From: an uncultured Actinomycetes bacterium
GTDB lineage: Bacteria; Chloroflexota; Dormibacteria; Aeolococcales; Aeolococcaceae
NCBI GenBank assembly: GCA_964499205.1
Contig: CAZCJX010000002.1
Coordinates: 9,102-73,101 of the forward strand
DNA length: 64,000 nucleotides
Direction of reading: 5' to 3'
How positions within the stretch are numbered: the stretch's first letter is position 1; each line of letters begins with the position of its first letter. This document shows positions 30,879 to 35,426 of this stretch, in pieces. A program made the translations under genes and the position numbers. Below the pieces are notes generated by a model. The model saw only the letters and a list, made by a program, of their open reading frames with translations. It did not search any database and was not told the DNA's origin.

Positions 30879-32051
30879 TCAGCTCTTGGCACTCCCGAAG
30901 GTGATGCGCAGCATGCCCTCGTCGAGGCGGGCGCCGCGGGTGACCCGGCCGCGCAGCGAGCGCGGCAGCGAGATCTCCCGCTTGTACGGTCCGACGGTGA
31001 CGAAGAGCTCGTCCTCGCGGTGGGTCAGCTCGATCTCGTCCTTGCTGACGAAGGGAAGATGCAGCAGCAGCTCGTACTCGCTGCCCTTCTTGCTGATGCG
31101 CTGGGGCACCGAGTGGTAGTAGATCTCGGCGGGATCGCGGTCGCCGAAGATCGATTCGGACATCTCGGCCAGGGCGTCGACGCCGACGATCTCGTGGTCG
31201 AAGAGCTTGGTGCGCACAATGGGCACCGGCGAGAACGCCGATTCGACCACGCTGTCGTAGCGCTGCTGCGCGGCGCGCCAGGACGCGAAGTAGCTGTCGG
31301 TCACCTCGGGCGGCAGCACCCGGTTCACCACCACCAGGTCGACCAGGTAGTCGTAGAGGCTGAGGTAGGTGAAGGCGCGCTGCGCCTCCTTGACCACCAT
31401 CTTCTCCAGGTTGAGCACCAGCCGCACCGTGCAGTTCTTGGGGTCGCCGAGCACCTTCTTCATGCCCTCGAGGTCGAGCAGCAGGTCCTTGACGCTGCCG
31501 AAGATGTCGTCCGAGGGAAGCGGGATGTTGACGAACGGCTGCACCATCGGCCGCGCCACCTTCATCACCCGGCGCTCGATGGGGAAGATCTTGTTGAGGT
31601 ACCACTTGGCCACATCGGGAAACGCCAGCAGCTGCAACGTCTCGCCGGTGGGCGCGCAGTCGACCACCAGCACGTCGTACTCGCCACGCCGCTGGTGATG
31701 CCTGATCCACATCAGGCTGGCCACCTCCTCCATCCCCGGCGGCGAGGCCAGCTCCTCGGCGACGATGTCGTCGACGCCCTGCGAGGCGAACAGTGCCGTG
31801 AGGTAGTCGTGGATGCGGTCCCAGTGGTTCTCCAGCTCGTGGAGCGCATTGACCTCCTGGGCCCAGAGATTGGGCTCGATCTCGACAGGATGGTCGGCGA
31901 TCTCGACGTCGAGGCTGTCGCCCAGGCTGTGCGCCGCGTCGGTGCTGATCACCAGGGTGCGATAGCCGAGGCGTGCGCAGCGGACCGCGGTGGCGGCCGC
32001 GACGGACGTCTTGCCGACGCCGCCCTTGCCCGTGTAGAGGATGACTCGCAT
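30879..32051 (-). CDS. ArsA/Get3-family ATPase with C-terminal HSP20-like (ArsA_HSP20) domain
   Basis: P-loop YTGKGGVGKTS and the STDAAHSLGD switch. C-terminal ..LHLPFVSKDEIELTHREDELFVTVGPYKREISLP.. is alpha-crystallin-like. Confidence 0.9.
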   Translation of the reverse strand: MRVILYTGKGGVGKTSVAAATAVRCARLGYRTLVISTDAAHSLGDSLDVEIADHPVEIEPNLWAQEVNALHELENHWDRIHDYLTALFASQGVDDIVAEELASPPGMEEVASLMWIRHHQRRGEYDVLVVDCAPTGETLQLLAFPDVAKWYLNKIFPIERRVMKVARPMVQPFVNIPLPSDDIFGSVKDLLLDLEGMKKVLGDPKNCTVRLVLNLEKMVVKEAQRAFTYLSLYDYLVDLVVVNRVLPPEVTDSYFASWRAAQQRYDSVVESAFSPVPIVRTKLFDHEIVGVDALAEMSESIFGDRDPAEIYYHSVPQRISKKGSEYELLLHLPFVSKDEIELTHREDELFVTVGPYKREISLPRSLRGRVTRGARLDEGMLRITFGSAKS

Positions 32052-32092
32052 TGGCTTCCGTCAGCCCGCGCGGCGACGCGCCGGCCGCGAGG

Positions 32093-32635
32093 TCACTTGA
32101 CGATCGCGTTGATGACGAAGTTGGCGACGACGATGAGCACGATCATCAGTCCCGCGATGATCAGCACCCGCCGCAGGTCGCCGGGGACGTAGGGAACGCG
32201 GTCGAAGGGGATGGCGGCGTCGTCGGGCGGCAGCGGCTCGAACATCGCCGCCGTGTTCTGGGCGCGACCGCCGCGGGGCCGCTGGCCGGGGCGCTGCGCC
32301 ACCGCGGTGGCTCCCGCCGCTGCCGCGGCGGCGTTGGGATCGATGCGCCCGACCCTTCGGCGCTCGGTGGACGTGCCGGCGCTGGTGCCCGTGCCCGCAC
32401 CGTTGGCGGCGGGTTGCGCCCGCTCCACCTCCGGGGGCGGCAGCGGCATGGGGCCGTCGCTCTCGGGGACGGGCAGCGCGCCGCTGGCGTAGTCGTCCGG
32501 GGAGCCGTCGAGGTCGACGTCGGGCAGGTCGACAGCGGGCGCCGGCGCGCCCTGGCCCCGCGACATCGGCGCCTGGGGCTGGGGCCGTCTCGGCTGCTGC
32601 TTGCGTGCCGGCGGACGCTTCGACTTCTTCGCCAT
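32093..32635 (-). CDS. tail-anchored membrane protein (disordered K/R/P-rich N-terminus, single C-terminal TM)
   Basis: In-frame ATG 32635 (MAKKSKRPPARK..). The last 25 residues are RRVLIIAGLMIVLIVVANFVINAIVK*. GC3 is high from 32635 downstream and drops upstream of it. The gene lies 41 bp upstream of the ArsA-like gene. Confidence 0.6.
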   Translation of the reverse strand: MAKKSKRPPARKQQPRRPQPQAPMSRGQGAPAPAVDLPDVDLDGSPDDYASGALPVPESDGPMPLPPPEVERAQPAANGAGTGTSAGTSTERRRVGRIDPNAAAAAAGATAVAQRPGQRPRGGRAQNTAAMFEPLPPDDAAIPFDRVPYVPGDLRRVLIIAGLMIVLIVVANFVINAIVK

Positions 32636-32816
32636 GGTGCGGCCGTGAAGGGTAGCAGGAGCCGCCGTTGGGGAGGCAGGAATGGCTGTCCCGGCGGCAG
32701 TCGGATTGGCGCTCGGTGGCGCGCTGCTTCGCGAGCGCCGAACGCTTGACCGCCGCAACATGCTGGGGTACCATTCCGCGCGGACCACAAGATGTGGGCT
32801 GCACCCGCACAGTTCG

Positions 32817-32913
32817 GGTCCACAGGCAGCAGGCGCCGGGCTCGCCCACCAGCCCCAACCGACCGTTCGTGCAACGGCCACCGTTATCCGGCGTTCTGCT
32901 GCCTGTGCGGACC
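32817..32913. repeat. long interrupted inverted repeat (about 22 bp stem) inside a 336-bp non-coding region
   Basis: GGTCC-ACAGGCAGCAG-GCGCCGG (32817-32839) pairs with CCGGCG-TT-CTGCTGCCTGT-GC-GGACC (32888-32913). The apical 48 nt contains further small hairpins (CCGTT..AACGG). Confidence 0.5.
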
Positions 32914-32937
32914 TGAAGAGATTCCAAGCTTGTCCGA

Positions 32938-32972
32938 CCAACCTTGGAATTCGCCCCTGGAATTCCAAGGAT
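32938..32972. repeat. AT-rich palindromic unit L: CCAACCTTGGAATTCG-CCCCTGG-AATTCCAAGGAT
   Basis: 11-bp perfect arms CCTTGGAATTC/GAATTCCAAGG (32942-32952 and 32960-32970). The last base overlaps the Fic stop codon. 28 of its nt are identical to unit R. Confidence 0.85.
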
Positions 32973-34234
32973 CAGCGCGCCTGGCGATGGGTCCCCAGGC
33001 GGCTCGACTGGCGTCGTTGCGAGGCCTTCGCCGGCGGCTCGACCACGGTGATCGCCGCGGCCGGGGTGGCCAGGCGCCGCTCCACCGCGTCCACCATGTC
33101 GAACACCTCGTTGGCAGCCCAGGCTCGGCGGTATCGCGAGGTGCTGAGGCTGCGGATGATCCCCGCCTCTTCCAGCTGCAGCAGCGCGGTTCGCGCCGCC
33201 TCGTGCGACACGCCGAACATCTCCTGCACCGCGGCGGTGTCGACGATCGGCGTGCCAGCCAGCCGTTCGATGAGCCGCGCGGCCGTCGAGCCCTGCCGCG
33301 GCCGGCCTGCGGCTTCGAGCCACCGCTCCCGCTGCGCTGCCACCTCGTCGGCGAGACCCAGCGCTGTCTGTGCCGCGATCGTCGTCGAGCGGGCGAACAT
33401 CGAGATCCACTCCGAGACGCCGCCATTGCGGAAGGCGGTGAGGCCCGCGATGTAGCCGCGGCCGTTGGCGGCGAGCACCAGGCTGATCGGCGGCACGAAA
33501 CGCGGCGCCAGGCCACGCCGCACCAGCACCGCATGGATCAGGCAGCGGCCGATGCGCCCGTTGCCGTCACCGAAGGGATGGATGACCTCGAACTGGGCGT
33601 GGGCCACGGCAGCCTGCACCACGGCCGGCATGTCGTCGCGAGCGACGAAGCGAACCAGGTCCTGCAGCAGGTCGGGGACCAACTCGGGCGGCGGTGGCAC
33701 GAAGGCGGCGCCGACGGGATTCCAGTCGTTGCCGCCGATCCAGTTCTGCGTGGTGCGCACGGTCCCGGCGATCTGCGACTCGTCGGTTGCTTCGAGCAGG
33801 ACGCGATGCATCGCCACGATGTCGTCCACCGCGAGCCGCCGCGGCGTGCGCGCGCGGGCGATGGCCGCCTCCATGGCGTGGACGTTGTTGACGACTTCGC
33901 GCGCAACCCGGTCATGCACCGTCGCGTCGAAGGCGACGCGGGCGAGGCGCTTCTGGCCGACGCGCAGCCCCTCGATGCGCGACGAGGCGTTGCTCTCGGC
34001 GCGCAGCAGCAGCGATGCCATCGAGTCGAGGCCAGCGATGGCGGTGGCGCGGTCCTGCAGGGCTTGCACCGCCTTCTCGGCGTCGACCACCTCCTGGGCG
34101 GTGGCCGCACCGACCAGCAGGTCGAGGTGGGCGACCGGGTCCGGGACGAACGCCTGGTACGAACCGCCGACCCTGGCCACCTTGGACGGGGCACCGGGGA
34201 CGCCGGGCCAGCGGGCTCTGACGTAGTGGGACAT
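32972..34234 (-). CDS. Fic family protein (Fic_N + Fic + C-terminal winged-helix), AMPylation-competent motif
   Basis: Active site HPFGDGNGRIGR. N-terminal inhibitory-helix motif SSRIEG matches (S/T)xxxE(G/N). C-terminal wHTH-like segment VQEMFGVSHEAARTALLQLEEAGII. Confidence 0.9.
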   Translation of the reverse strand: MSHYVRARWPGVPGAPSKVARVGGSYQAFVPDPVAHLDLLVGAATAQEVVDAEKAVQALQDRATAIAGLDSMASLLLRAESNASSRIEGLRVGQKRLARVAFDATVHDRVAREVVNNVHAMEAAIARARTPRRLAVDDIVAMHRVLLEATDESQIAGTVRTTQNWIGGNDWNPVGAAFVPPPPELVPDLLQDLVRFVARDDMPAVVQAAVAHAQFEVIHPFGDGNGRIGRCLIHAVLVRRGLAPRFVPPISLVLAANGRGYIAGLTAFRNGGVSEWISMFARSTTIAAQTALGLADEVAAQRERWLEAAGRPRQGSTAARLIERLAGTPIVDTAAVQEMFGVSHEAARTALLQLEEAGIIRSLSTSRYRRAWAANEVFDMVDAVERRLATPAAAITVVEPPAKASQRRQSSRLGTHRQAR

Positions 34235-34238
34235 GGGG

Positions 34239-34272
34239 CCAACCTTGGAATTCGAGCGTCAATTCCAAGGAT
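34239..34272. repeat. AT-rich palindromic unit R: CCAACCTTGGAATTCG-AGCGTC-AATTCCAAGGAT
   Basis: 10-bp perfect arms (34243-34252 and 34261-34270). Begins 4 nt from the Fic ATG. On the mRNA strand the only SD-like AAGG lies inside the 3' arm. Confidence 0.85.
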
Positions 34273-34280
34273 AGACCAAG

Positions 34281-34315
34281 TTCCTTGGATTGCCTAGCCG
34301 GGATTCCAAGGTTGT
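34281..34315. repeat. degenerate third palindromic unit (inverted orientation): TTCCTTGGATT-GCCTAGCCGG-GATTCCAAGGTTGT
   Basis: Arms CCTTGGA(-)T/ATTCCAAGG with a one-base gap. GATTCCAAGGTTGT repeats GATTCCAAGCTTGT at 32920-32933. Confidence 0.55.
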
Positions 34316-34334
34316 TCTTGCCGGCCTGGGACGC

Positions 34335-35426
34335 TCAGACGTTGAAGCGGAAGTGCATCACGTCGCCGTCCTGGACGAGGTAGTCGCGGCCCTCGAGGCG
34401 GAGGCGGCCCTGCTCGCGGACGGCGGCGTAGGAGCCGGCGGCGATGAGGTCGGCGGCGGACACCACCTCGGCGCGGATGAATCCCTTGGCGAAGTCGGTG
34501 TGGATCTCGGCGGCGGCGTCGAGGGCGGTCTCGCCGCGGCGCACGGTCCAGGCGCGCACCTCCTTCTCGCCGGCGGTGAAGAAGGTGATCAGGGCGAGGA
34601 GGTGGTAGGCGGAGCGGGCCAGACGGTTGAGGCCGGGCTCCTCCAGGCCCAGGGAGGCGAGGAACTCGCGCTGGTCCTCGGCGTCGAGCTCGGACAGCTC
34701 CGACTCGATGCGCGCCGACACGGCCACCGCCTCGCCGCCGCTGCGCTCGGCGCGCTCCTCGACGCGCCGCAGCACCGCGGCGCCGGCCGGGTCGTTCTCG
34801 TCGACGTTGGCCACAACCAGGATGGGCTTGGCGGTGAGCAGGAAGAGGTCGCGCAGCGGTGCCTGCTGCTCCTTGGTGAGGCCCATGGTGCGCACCGGCT
34901 GGCCGGAGTCGAGGTGCTCGCGGACCCGGCGCAGCACGGCGATGTCCTCCTCGGCGTGGTCCTTCTGCAGCCGCGAGGTGCGCTCCGACCTGTCGAGGCG
35001 CTTGGTCACCGATTCGAGGTCGGCGAGCTGCAGCTCCAGCTCGAGCAGGTCGATGTCGCGCACGGGGTCGACCGAGCCCTCGACGTGGGTGACGTCGGGA
35101 TCGTCGAAGCAGCGGACCACCAACGCGACGGCGTCGGTCTCGCGGATGTGGCCGAGGAACTGGTTGCCCAGGCCCTCCCCGCGGGAGGCGCCGCGCACCA
35201 GGCCGGCGATGTCGGTGAAGGTCACCGTGGTGGGGATGACCCGCGGAGGGTTGAAGATCGCGGCGAGCTGCTCGAGGCGGGGGTCGGGGACGGGCACCAC
35301 GCCGGTGTTGGGCTCGATGGTGGTGAAGGGGTAGTTGCCCACCGCCGCCCCGGCCCGCGTCAACGCGTTGAAAAGGGTCGACTTCCCGGCGTTGGGCAGG
35401 CCGACGATGCCGACGCTCAGACCCAT
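34335..35426 (-). CDS. ychF: redox-regulated ribosome-binding ATPase YchF
   Basis: GIVGLPNAGKSTLFNALT, and the TGS domain ending DGDVMHFRFNV. Confidence 0.95.
   Translation of the reverse strand: MGLSVGIVGLPNAGKSTLFNALTRAGAAVGNYPFTTIEPNTGVVPVPDPRLEQLAAIFNPPRVIPTTVTFTDIAGLVRGASRGEGLGNQFLGHIRETDAVALVVRCFDDPDVTHVEGSVDPVRDIDLLELELQLADLESVTKRLDRSERTSRLQKDHAEEDIAVLRRVREHLDSGQPVRTMGLTKEQQAPLRDLFLLTAKPILVVANVDENDPAGAAVLRRVEERAERSGGEAVAVSARIESELSELDAEDQREFLASLGLEEPGLNRLARSAYHLLALITFFTAGEKEVRAWTVRRGETALDAAAEIHTDFAKGFIRAEVVSAADLIAAGSYAAVREQGRLRLEGRDYLVQDGDVMHFRFNV

What the first reader, a model, noticed from the sequence alone, without database searches (positions are those of the whole stretch)
32920..34315. 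Fic AMPylase-type gene bracketed to the nucleotide by near-identical AT-rich palindromic units (CCTTGGAATT / AATTCCAAGG array)
Two 34-35 bp units share 16+12 identical nt: CCAACCTTGGAATTCG-N6/7-AATTCCAAGGAT at 32938-32972 and 34239-34272. Each can form a perfect 10-11 bp hairpin.

The left unit ends on the first base of the Fic stop codon. The right unit starts 4 nt from the Fic ATG, so the only SD-like AAGG (8 nt before the ATG) lies inside a hairpin arm.

Further degenerate copies sit outside both units. GATTCCAAG[C/G]TTGT occurs at 32920-32933 and 34302-34315, and an inverted unit lies at 34281-34315. That gives 8 CCAAG/CTTGG cores within about 150 bp of flanks, in an otherwise very GC-rich context. 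The motif was not seen elsewhere in the window.

The Fic protein has an intact HPFGDGNGRIGR site, an intramolecular inhibitory SSRIEG motif and a C-terminal winged-helix domain. Two readings fit:
- an autoregulatory operator / SD-sequestering hairpin array for a potentially toxic enzyme
- a gene cassette inserted into a pre-existing palindrome (the ychF terminator) with duplication of the target

I do not recognise this arrangement as a described element.
Basis: partly seen in the sequence, partly recalled or inferred. Interest (0 to 1): 0.7.

Follow-up and report, generated by a model that had tools for sequence, protein, structure and literature searches.

The report
Self-repression operator sites around fic
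The palindromes around this Fic (AMP-transferase) gene are real and conserved, and are most likely the DNA sites where the Fic protein's own C-terminal winged-helix domain binds to repress its gene, a mechanism already shown for related Fic proteins.

Summary
TTCCAAGG occurs 5 times in 64 kb, always at fic (0.45 expected).

The units are not hairpin cassettes. They form an array of CCTTGGAAT half-sites in alternating orientation:
- four lie upstream of fic (core spacings 17/12/16 nt), over a -10-like TATCCT and the ribosome-binding site;
- three lie just after the stop codon (spacings 17/12).

The upstream array is present in all 8 syntenic Dormibacterota fic loci (60-100% protein identity). 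Three close relatives lacking fic have no palindrome at the empty site, which rules out insertion into a pre-existing palindrome.

Among 78 Fic_N-Fic-wHTH loci from several phyla, 50% carry a strong palindrome within 120 nt upstream of fic, against 6% of control ORFs. Copies are confined to fic flanks, so this is not a REP element.

Operator sequence class is best predicted by residue 345, in the predicted recognition helix. It ranks first of 419 alignment columns.

Yersinia CccR and Shewanella SoFic are experimental precedents for Fic-HTH proteins binding their own promoters.

Verdict: a new member of a known kind. The 3' cluster, present in a subclade and independently in Microbispora, is the only unusual feature, and its role is unknown.

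The parts
32972..34234 (-). fic gene (420 aa): class II Fic AMP-transferase type with N-terminal inhibitory motif SSRIEG, catalytic HPFGDGNGRIGR, C-terminal winged helix and a disordered basic tail
   Evidence: ORF and translation. Pfam Fic_N + Fic. AF2 model pLDDT 87.9. Closest solved structure 7cb8, M. marinum Fic, TM 0.85.
33068..33286 (-). Coding region for the winged-helix domain (residues 317-389). The predicted recognition helix is residues 344-356 (33167-33205).
   Evidence: DSSP of the AF2 model: H317-325, b330-332, H333-340, H344-356, wing b361-364/b370-373. Residue 345 is the best predictor of operator class in the family.
34302..34313 (-). Half-site H1 (minus strand AACCTTGGAATC), the most distal upstream site
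   Evidence: Present in all 8 orthologous loci.
34291..34296 (-). Candidate -35 hexamer TAGGCA, 17 nt upstream of TATCCT, in the H1-H2 spacer (weak; not conserved among orthologues)
   Evidence: Read from the sequence. L006 has TGGACA-17-TATCCT at the same place and the promoter scan flags it. The window version scores 8 of 12 and is below the tool's threshold.
34281..34291 (-). Half-site H2 (minus strand AATCCAAGGAA), inverted relative to H1; 17 nt between the 6-bp cores
34268..34273 (-). -10-like hexamer TATCCT (TANNNT) overlapping the start of H3. The TAT is invariant in all 8 orthologues.
   Evidence: alignment by eye of the 8 upstream regions. (tool hit in L006).
34261..34270 (-). Half-site H3 (minus strand CCTTGGAATT); 12 nt between the H2 and H3 cores
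34243..34252 (-). Half-site H4 (minus strand AATTCCAAGG), 16 nt from the H3 core. Its AAGG is the only SD-like sequence and ends 8 nt before the ATG.
32961..32970 (-). 3' cluster half-site H1' (minus strand CCTTGGAATT), starting 1 nt after the fic stop codon
32942..32951 (-). 3' cluster half-site H2' (minus strand AATTCCAAGG), 17 nt from the H1' core
32920..32929 (-). 3' cluster half-site H3' (minus strand GCTTGGAATC), 12 nt from the H2' core. There is no TAT in front, so no -10-like element.
   Evidence: (family D11).
34335..35426 (-). ychF (context). Its stop codon lies 21 nt before H1.
   Evidence: Pfam YchF-GTPase_C, MMR_HSR1. Homologues are named redox-regulated ATPase YchF of Candidatus Dormibacteraeota.

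Best explanation
The repeats are an operator array for negative autoregulation of fic by its own product.

Proposed mechanism (inferred):
- Fic dimers bind through their C-terminal winged-helix domains to CCTTGGAAT half-sites.
- Upstream there are four half-sites in alternating orientation (H1> <H2 H3> <H4).
- By my reckoning, treating each site as a 9-mer, centres are about 19-21 bp apart, so all sites would lie on one face of the helix.
- The array covers the probable promoter (-10-like TATCCT inside H3) and the ribosome-binding region (H4).
- Occupancy would therefore block RNA polymerase and keep a potentially toxic enzyme at a low, self-limited level.

The 3' cluster (inferred):
- Three half-sites lie directly after the stop codon.
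- They reproduce the 17/12-nt spacing of H1-H2-H3 but lack the -10-like element.
- This is an auxiliary operator cluster present only in a subclade.
- I think it most likely strengthens repression by looping to the 5' cluster, or acts as a bound roadblock or insulator at the gene's end.

Shown here: the sites, their conservation, their exclusive association with fic, and the covariation with the recognition helix.
Inferred: binding, repression, the transcription start site, and the role of the 3' cluster.
For: 1. The half-sites are real and confined to fic in the 64-kb window.

2. All 8 syntenic Dormibacterota loci with fic (60-100% Fic identity) keep four CCTTGG/CCAAGG cores with the same order and orientation, nearly the same spacing, and an invariant TAT before H3. 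The spacers between the cores diverge.

3. The sites travel with fic. In L006 a GNAT gene separates ychF from fic, and the array sits next to fic. Fic-less relatives have none.

4. The pattern holds across the family. A palindrome scoring at least 9 lies within 120 nt upstream in 50% of 78 fic loci from Actinomycetota, Chloroflexota, Gemmatimonadota and other phyla, against 6% of 236 control ORFs (Fisher p 2e-16).

5. Arm sequences differ between clades but stay palindromic. The palindrome centre is often exactly 25 nt from the start codon.

6. Copies of each locus's own half-site are essentially confined to fic flanks within the 7-kb loci.

7. Operator class is best predicted by residue 345: Q with TTGAA, P with TTTAA, K with TCCAA/TATAA. 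It ranks first of 419 columns, with MI 1.57 of 1.68 bits and 0 of 500 shuffles reaching it. Residue 345 is the second residue of the predicted recognition helix.

8. Precedents exist. CccR, a class II Fic with a C-terminal HTH, represses its own promoter through inverted repeats near the -35/-10, shown by lacZ fusion, EMSA, footprinting and ITC (PMC9755527). Dimeric SoFic binds its own promoter within 100 bp of the start codon (bioRxiv 10.64898/2026.07.09.737422). CbFic2 binds DNA through the same domain (PMC10628234).

9. In L006 the promoter scan flags TGGACA-17-TATCCT exactly at the corresponding position.
Against: - There is no binding or expression data for this protein or its subfamily.
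- It is only distantly related to CccR (about 19% identity; whole-chain TM 0.54).
- The window's own promoter candidate (TAGGCA-17-TATCCT) is below the scan threshold.
- TATCCT overlaps a half-site, so its conservation cannot be separated from conservation of the operator.
- The covariation analysis is not corrected for phylogeny. Classes partly coincide with clades, and one locus (L068) has arms that disagree with the rule.
- In several distant homologues the palindrome extends through the SD and an upstream anti-SD (L042, L028, L082, L072). That hints at an additional RNA-level role.
- The role of the 3' cluster is untested, and four of eight orthologues do without it.
- I could not scan the rest of this genome for further sites.
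Confidence: 0.75

Rival explanations
1. The palindromes act mainly as RNA hairpins. The H3:H4 hairpin would sequester the SD-like AAGG to limit translation, and the hairpin after the stop codon would terminate or stabilise the fic mRNA.
For: - H4 contains the only SD-like AAGG, 8 nt before the ATG.
- Perfect 10-11 bp arms are present.
- In distant homologues the palindrome ends 2-13 nt before the start codon and sometimes includes the SD plus an anti-SD (L042, L028, L082, L072).
- Read-through transcripts from ychF would contain all the arms. The folds are somewhat more stable than shuffles (z -2.2 and -2.4).
Against: - Arm sequence, not just pairing, is conserved among copies within a genome and among orthologues, while the spacers diverge.
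- Distal copies have no relation to the SD.
- Mismatches in 51 family palindromes show no sense-strand wobble bias: G-T 15, A-C 11, other 27.
- No intrinsic-terminator-like site is found.
- The -10-like TATCCT lies inside H3, so the fic-promoter transcript would lack most of the left arm.
- Operator class covaries with a protein residue, which an RNA hairpin does not explain.
Confidence: 0.1
2. The sites are operators for a different transcription factor encoded elsewhere, and Fic's winged helix has another role, for example non-specific DNA binding that controls its enzymatic state as in CbFic2.
For: - CbFic2 binds random DNA with nanomolar affinity, and DNA binding switches its activity.
- No direct binding data exist for this subfamily.
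- A similar palindrome occurs in a soil contig with no fic within 2 kb (L103).
Against: - The palindromes accompany fic in many unrelated genomic contexts and phyla, with no other regulator consistently adjacent.
- Their sequence class tracks residue 345 of Fic's own recognition helix better than any other of 419 columns.
- CccR and SoFic bind their own promoters specifically.
Confidence: 0.08
3. fic is a mobile cassette. Either the flanking units are a duplicated target palindrome (a former ychF terminator), or they are recombination sites that move the gene.
For: - Near-identical 34-35 bp units in direct orientation lie at both gene ends.
- fic is present or absent among close relatives at the same site.
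- In other lineages fic homologues sit next to tRNA genes (L012, L030).
Against: - Empty sites in L091, L092 and L093 contain no CCTTGGAA palindrome.
- Four orthologues have upstream sites only.
- The two units differ in spacer length and sequence, which does not fit lox/dif-type exchange or a recent duplication.
- No recombinase is adjacent.
- fic occupies the same site at 60-74% protein identity, roughly in step with YchF divergence. That fits vertical descent with losses.
- Upstream palindromes sit at a fixed distance from the start codon across phyla.
Confidence: 0.03
4. The units are copies of a generic genome-wide REP/MITE-like repeat that happen to flank fic.
For: They are palindromic, AT-richer than their surroundings, intergenic and multi-copy.
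Against: - No copy lies elsewhere in 64 kb.
- None lies elsewhere in the 9-kb syntenic loci of relatives.
- In 39 family loci the locus-specific half-sites are confined to fic flanks.
- Position relative to the fic start codon is conserved.
Confidence: 0.02

Closest known systems
CccR of Yersinia pseudotuberculosis (Wang et al., Nat Commun 2022, PMC9755527; crystal structure probably PDB 7xux, judged by chain length and release date)
   Same: - Class II Fic with an N-terminal inhibitory (S/T)xxxE(G/N) helix, a Fic core and a C-terminal HTH.
- A dimer that binds inverted repeats lying at the -35/-10 of its own promoter and represses it.
- The enzyme is toxic when overproduced.
   Different: - Only about 19% identical. 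By sequence only the Fic core aligns (E 4e-9), and whole-chain TM is 0.54.
- The CccR operator is one pair of 10-bp repeats separated by 26 bp. Here there are four 9-10 bp half-sites about 20 bp apart, plus a 3' cluster.
- CccR is a T6SS effector. No secretion context is seen here.
SoFic of Shewanella oneidensis (PDB 3eqx/3zcn; bioRxiv 10.64898/2026.07.09.737422)
   Same: - Fic_N + Fic + wHTH architecture (TM 0.68-0.70).
- The dimeric protein binds specifically to DNA within 100 bp upstream of its own start codon.
   Different: - The binding site is not defined at nucleotide level in the passages I read, and no palindromic or 3' sites are reported there.
- 18-20% identity.
Mycobacterium marinum FIC-domain protein (PDB 7cb8)
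   Same: Closest solved relative over the whole length, including the winged helix: 34% identity, TM 0.85, phmmer E 2.6e-59. It belongs to the same subfamily as the 78 loci analysed.
   Different: I found no publication on its DNA binding or regulation. Its upstream region could not be examined with the collections available.
Type II toxin-antitoxin operators (for example Phd/Doc) and the AbiEi wHTH autorepressor
   Same: Negative autoregulation of a growth-inhibiting enzyme through palindromic operators that overlap its promoter. Doc is itself a Fido-fold protein.
   Different: Here there is a single polypeptide. The inhibitory helix and the DNA-binding domain are fused to the enzyme, and there is no separate antitoxin gene.

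Membership tests
Fic-HTH autorepressors (CccR/SoFic type) | Fic core with catalytic HxFx(D/E)GNGRxxR motif | tested here: met
   HPFGDGNGRIGR in the translation. Pfam Fic E 9e-19.
Fic-HTH autorepressors (CccR/SoFic type) | Class II intramolecular inhibitory helix (S/T)xxxE(G/N) N-terminal to the Fic core | tested here: met
   SSRIEG at residues 84-89, invariant in 27 homologues. Fic_N E 8e-12.
Fic-HTH autorepressors (CccR/SoFic type) | C-terminal (winged) helix-turn-helix domain | tested here: met
   The AF2 model has H-b-H-H-b-wing-b at residues 317-373 with pLDDT above 90. The whole chain matches 7cb8, SoFic, 7xux and CbFic2.
Fic-HTH autorepressors (CccR/SoFic type) | Inverted repeats within the gene's own promoter region, overlapping the -35/-10 | tested here: inconclusive
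   Inverted half-sites within 80 nt of the ATG are certain and conserved. The promoter itself is only predicted: invariant TATCCT, and a tool hit in L006 but not in the window.
Fic-HTH autorepressors (CccR/SoFic type) | Sequence-specific binding of the protein to those repeats and repression of its own transcription | not testable with these tools
   Indirect support only: operator class covaries with residue 345 of the recognition helix.
REP / MITE-type dispersed palindromic repeats | Many copies dispersed at unrelated intergenic sites of the genome | tested here: not met
   No copies outside fic flanks in the 64-kb window or in the related loci. The whole genome was not available.
Site-specific recombination modules (lox/dif-type, integron cassettes) | Flanking sites with identical central spacers, plus an associated recombinase or a single site left at empty loci | tested here: not met
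   Spacers differ: GCCCCTG against CGAGCGTC on the plus strand. No recombinase is nearby. Empty sites lack any unit.
Intrinsic terminators / described RNA families | GC-rich stem followed by a U-tract, or a match to an Rfam model | tested here: not met
   0 terminator-like sites. No Rfam hit at gathering threshold in the window and none credible at E up to 1 in 32400-34400.

The most novel reading that the evidence does not exclude
The 5' and 3' half-site clusters may work together. Fic oligomers bound at both ends of the 1.3-kb gene would loop it out, or hold the enzyme in a DNA-bound, inactive or de-AMPylating state. Under this reading the gene-bracketing operator is a distinct control architecture for a single-protein toxin.

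The arrangement arose at least twice:
- in a Dormibacterota subclade;
- in Microbispora (L034), which has a different half-site sequence.

In addition, one recognition-helix position (residue 345) would act as a simple, transferable specificity code across phyla.
Probability: 0.2. Interest if true: 0.55.

Novelty: new member of a known kind. Interest (0 to 1): 0.38.

Why it matters
Fic enzymes can be toxic to their own cell, and how bacteria keep them in check is only partly understood. CccR (2022) and SoFic (2026 preprint) showed that two gammaproteobacterial Fic-HTH proteins bind their own promoters.

The evidence here suggests this is general for a large, separate subfamily related to the M. 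marinum 7cb8 protein. That subfamily spans Dormibacterota, Actinomycetota, Chloroflexota and Gemmatimonadota.

It also yields things that can be tested directly:
- nucleotide-level operator predictions for dozens of loci;
- a candidate specificity-determining residue.

The 3' operator cluster is a small but real oddity. It could reveal looping or insulation in a one-gene module. For genome annotation, the result removes a false lead: this is neither a mobile cassette nor a new repeat class.

Tried and rejected
1. Metagenome pattern scan (CCTTGGAATTN{7,12}WTCCAAGG).
- None of the 80 stored loci encodes a Fic homologue.
- It is therefore uninformative about other genomic targets.
- Only L103 (soil, 63% GC) carries a convincing look-alike palindrome.

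2. The genome-contig scan returned only homologues of 37-51% identity. The window's own species was not among the kept rows, so a whole-genome count of sites was not possible.

3. Rfam found nothing, both at gathering threshold over the whole window and at E up to 1 around the locus.

4. The terminator scan found none.

5. The promoter scan in the window missed the proposed promoter (8 of 12 matches). Its only hit is on the opposite strand at 32746-32774.

6. The G-U against A-C mismatch test gave no strand bias. It argues against an RNA role but has low power.

7. RNA folding of both clusters gave only modest z-scores, with competing pairings among the interchangeable arms.

8. A literature search for 7cb8 found nothing relevant.

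9. Rejected readings: a lox/dif-like module, an integron attC, target-site duplication, and a ychF terminator. The reasons are given under the rival explanations.
Full report
OBSERVATION

The sequence is as described. The 420-aa ORF at 32972-34234 (-) is a Fic_N + Fic protein. It carries SSRIEG and HPFGDGNGRIGR.

A 35-bp unit at 32938-32972 overlaps its stop codon. A 34-bp unit at 34239-34272 begins 4 nt after its ATG in plus-strand coordinates. The two share CCAACCTTGGAATTCG and AATTCCAAGGAT. Each has perfect 10-11 bp arms, with different spacers of 7 and 8 nt.

The motif is far above chance and is confined to this locus:
- TTCCAAGG: 5 hits in 64 kb, all here, against 0.45 expected.
- The 16-mer with up to 3 mismatches: 3 hits, all here.
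- CCTTGGAAT with up to 1 mismatch: 8 of 9 hits here.

ANATOMY

The locus is clearer when read in the direction of the genes (minus strand) and as half-sites rather than hairpin units.

Upstream of fic there are four half-sites in alternating orientation:
- H1 AACCTTGGAATC
- H2 AATCCAAGGAA
- H3 CCTTGGAATT
- H4 AATTCCAAGG

The 6-bp cores are separated by 17, 12 and 16 nt. If each site is taken as a 9-mer, the centres are about 19-21 bp apart by my reckoning. That is two helical turns, so all sites would lie on one face of the DNA.

H3 is preceded by TAT, which gives a -10-like TATCCT. A weak -35 (TAGGCA) lies 17 nt upstream, in the H1-H2 spacer. H4 contains the only SD-like AAGG.

Directly after the stop codon there are three more half-sites (H1' H2' H3'). 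Their spacings are 17 and 12 nt, the same as H1-H2-H3, but there is no TAT.

ORGANISM AND SYNTENY

YchF homologues identify the source as Candidatus Dormibacterota.

Eight distinct loci from relatives carry fic at the same site, between ychF and a small tail-anchored-type ORF followed by an ArsA-like ATPase. Fic identity ranges from 60 to 100%.

Every one of them has the four upstream half-sites in the same order and orientation, at nearly the same spacing. The TAT before H3 is invariant, while the spacers between the cores diverge. In L006 a GNAT gene lies between ychF and fic, and the array stays with fic. In L006 the promoter scan flags TGGACA-17-TATCCT at exactly the expected position.

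The 3' cluster is present only in the window, in L007/L090 and in L216. In L006, L214, L215 and L217 the stop codon is followed within a few nucleotides by the next conserved element.

THE CASSETTE IDEA

Three close relatives (YchF 88-91% identical) lack fic: L091, L092 and L093. At their empty site there is no CCTTGGAA palindrome. L093 instead has a tandem array of about 22-bp units.

The palindromes therefore come and go with fic. They were not a pre-existing target that became duplicated. The two units also differ in spacer, and no recombinase is nearby.

The presence/absence pattern fits vertical descent with repeated loss. Fic identities fall roughly in step with YchF identities.

FAMILY-WIDE PICTURE

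A profile scan of one genome per species returned 80 loci with Fic homologues of 37-51% identity. They come from Actinomycetota, Chloroflexota, Gemmatimonadota and other phyla, in unrelated genomic contexts.

Printing the 120 nt upstream of each start codon showed long palindromes in most of them. They follow a shared layout but use clade-specific sequences:
- TTATTCAAGGTTA-N5-TAACCTTGAATAA
- TATCCTTTCACG...CGTGAAAGGATA, often two units in tandem
- TTAGTTCAGTTTA-N5-TAAACTGAACTAA

A palindrome scoring at least 9 occurs in 50% of 78 fic loci, against 6% of 236 control ORFs from the same loci (Fisher p 2e-16). In many loci the palindrome centre is exactly 25 nt from the start codon. Copies of each locus's own half-site are essentially restricted to the fic flanks within the 7-kb loci. 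This rules out a generic REP element.

WHO BINDS

The AlphaFold model (pLDDT 87.9) shows a canonical winged helix with recognition helix 344-356. The closest solved structure is the M. marinum Fic protein 7cb8 (TM 0.85). SoFic, 7xux and CbFic2 follow.

I grouped loci with the canonical TAACCT-xx-AA half-site by the two variable bases. The alignment column that best predicts the group is residue 345, the second residue of the recognition helix:
- Q (once S) goes with TTGAA;
- P goes with TTTAA;
- K goes with TCCAA or TATAA.

With programmatic labels it ranks first of 419 columns, at MI 1.57 of 1.68 bits, and 0 of 500 label shuffles reach that value. This is not corrected for phylogeny. However, shared descent affects all columns, and only this one stands out.

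Published work gives the mechanism a precedent:
- CccR, a class II Fic with a C-terminal HTH, binds AGATAATCAT-N26-ATGATAATCT at the -35/-10 of its own promoter and represses it (PMC9755527).
- Dimeric SoFic binds its own promoter within 100 bp of the start codon (bioRxiv 10.64898/2026.07.09.737422).
- CbFic2 binds DNA through the same domain (PMC10628234).

DNA OR RNA

Several points favour a DNA operator:
- Arm sequence is conserved, not merely pairing.
- Several interchangeable copies occur per locus, including copies far from the SD.
- Mismatches show no wobble bias: 15 G-T, 11 A-C, 27 other.
- Fold z-scores are modest, -2.2 and -2.4.
- No terminator-like sites are found.
- There is no Rfam match.

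With TATCCT as the -10, the fic transcript would start inside H3 and could not form the H3:H4 hairpin. Read-through RNA from ychF could form it, so a secondary insulating role is not excluded. In some distant homologues the palindrome includes the SD and an anti-SD. I leave that open.

THE 3' CLUSTER

This is the one feature without a precedent in the papers I read. It copies the H1-H2-H3 geometry.

Within each genome, H1' resembles that genome's own H1:
- window: CCTTGGAAT in both;
- L007: GCTTGGATT in both.

An analogous duplicate of the complete two-unit operator lies after the fic stop codon in Microbispora siamensis (L034). It uses that lineage's own TATCCTTTCA half-site.

Possible roles are an auxiliary operator for looping, a protein roadblock at the gene end, or a sink that holds Fic on DNA. 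None could be tested here.

VERDICT

The operator reading is well supported. The hairpin/SD reading is secondary at best. The cassette and REP readings are rejected.

The locus is a new member of the known class of self-repressing Fic-HTH proteins. It has a different operator geometry and an unexplained 3' site cluster. Interest is moderate.

Noticed in passing
window 32739-32908 (between fic and the small tail-anchored-type ORF starting at 32566, minus strand): - A roughly 175-nt element lies here that is far more conserved than the flanking intergenic DNA.
- It is present in all 10 relatives examined, including those without fic.
- It has an invariant 12-bp stem CACAGGCAGCAG/CTGCTGCCTGTG, a 6-bp stem CGCCGG/CCGGCG and the box CCCACATCTTGTGG.
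- Three pairs in a second stem covary.
- There is no Rfam match.
- A promoter-like TTGACC-17-TACCAT lies inside it on the opposite (+) strand at 32746-32774.
- It may be an undescribed leader or sRNA of Dormibacterota.
   Followed up: partly
L093 5093-5520: In one fic-less relative, the site where fic sits in the window holds about 20 tandem copies of a unit of roughly 22 bp (GGCGCAAACCCCGCGCCGCA-like), between ychF and the conserved element.
   Followed up: no
L034 4315-4406 (Microbispora siamensis): A complete second copy of the two-unit operator (TTTCCTTTCAC..GAAAGGAAA, TATCCTTTCAT..GAAAGGATA) lies after the fic stop codon. An ATG follows 15 nt later, opening an unconvincing 84-aa ORF. This is an independent instance of a fic gene bracketed by its own operator type.
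   Followed up: partly
L103 2060-2140 (soil metagenome contig Ga0182021_10068351): AAGGTTA..TAACCTTGGAATctcggggcgcAATTCCAAGGTTA lies in intergenic DNA among small ORFs. No fic homologue is found within the 4.1-kb contig. It could be a further target of a Fic-type regulator, or chance.
   Followed up: partly
L042, L028, L082, L072 (about 45 nt before the fic start codon): In several distant homologues the upstream palindrome has 16-21 nt arms that include the SD (GGAGG) on the right and its complement (CCTCC) on the left. In 13 loci the palindrome centre is exactly 25 nt from the start codon. This may reflect an added RNA-level control, or palindrome extension by template switching.
   Followed up: partly
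window 30879-32566 (minus strand) and syntenic loci: A 157-aa ORF with a lysine/arginine/proline-rich N-terminus and a single C-terminal hydrophobic segment has no Pfam or NCBIfam hit. It is always followed by an ArsA/Get3-like ATPase with an HSP20-like domain, a 72-aa ORF and an M50 peptidase. This conserved neighbourhood is reminiscent of tail-anchored protein handling.
   Followed up: no
L006 3416-3889 and L091 5089-5553: A GNAT acetyltransferase gene overlapping the ychF stop codon is present in some relatives, both with and without fic, and absent from the window. The ychF-downstream interval is therefore a hotspot of gene gain and loss.
   Followed up: no
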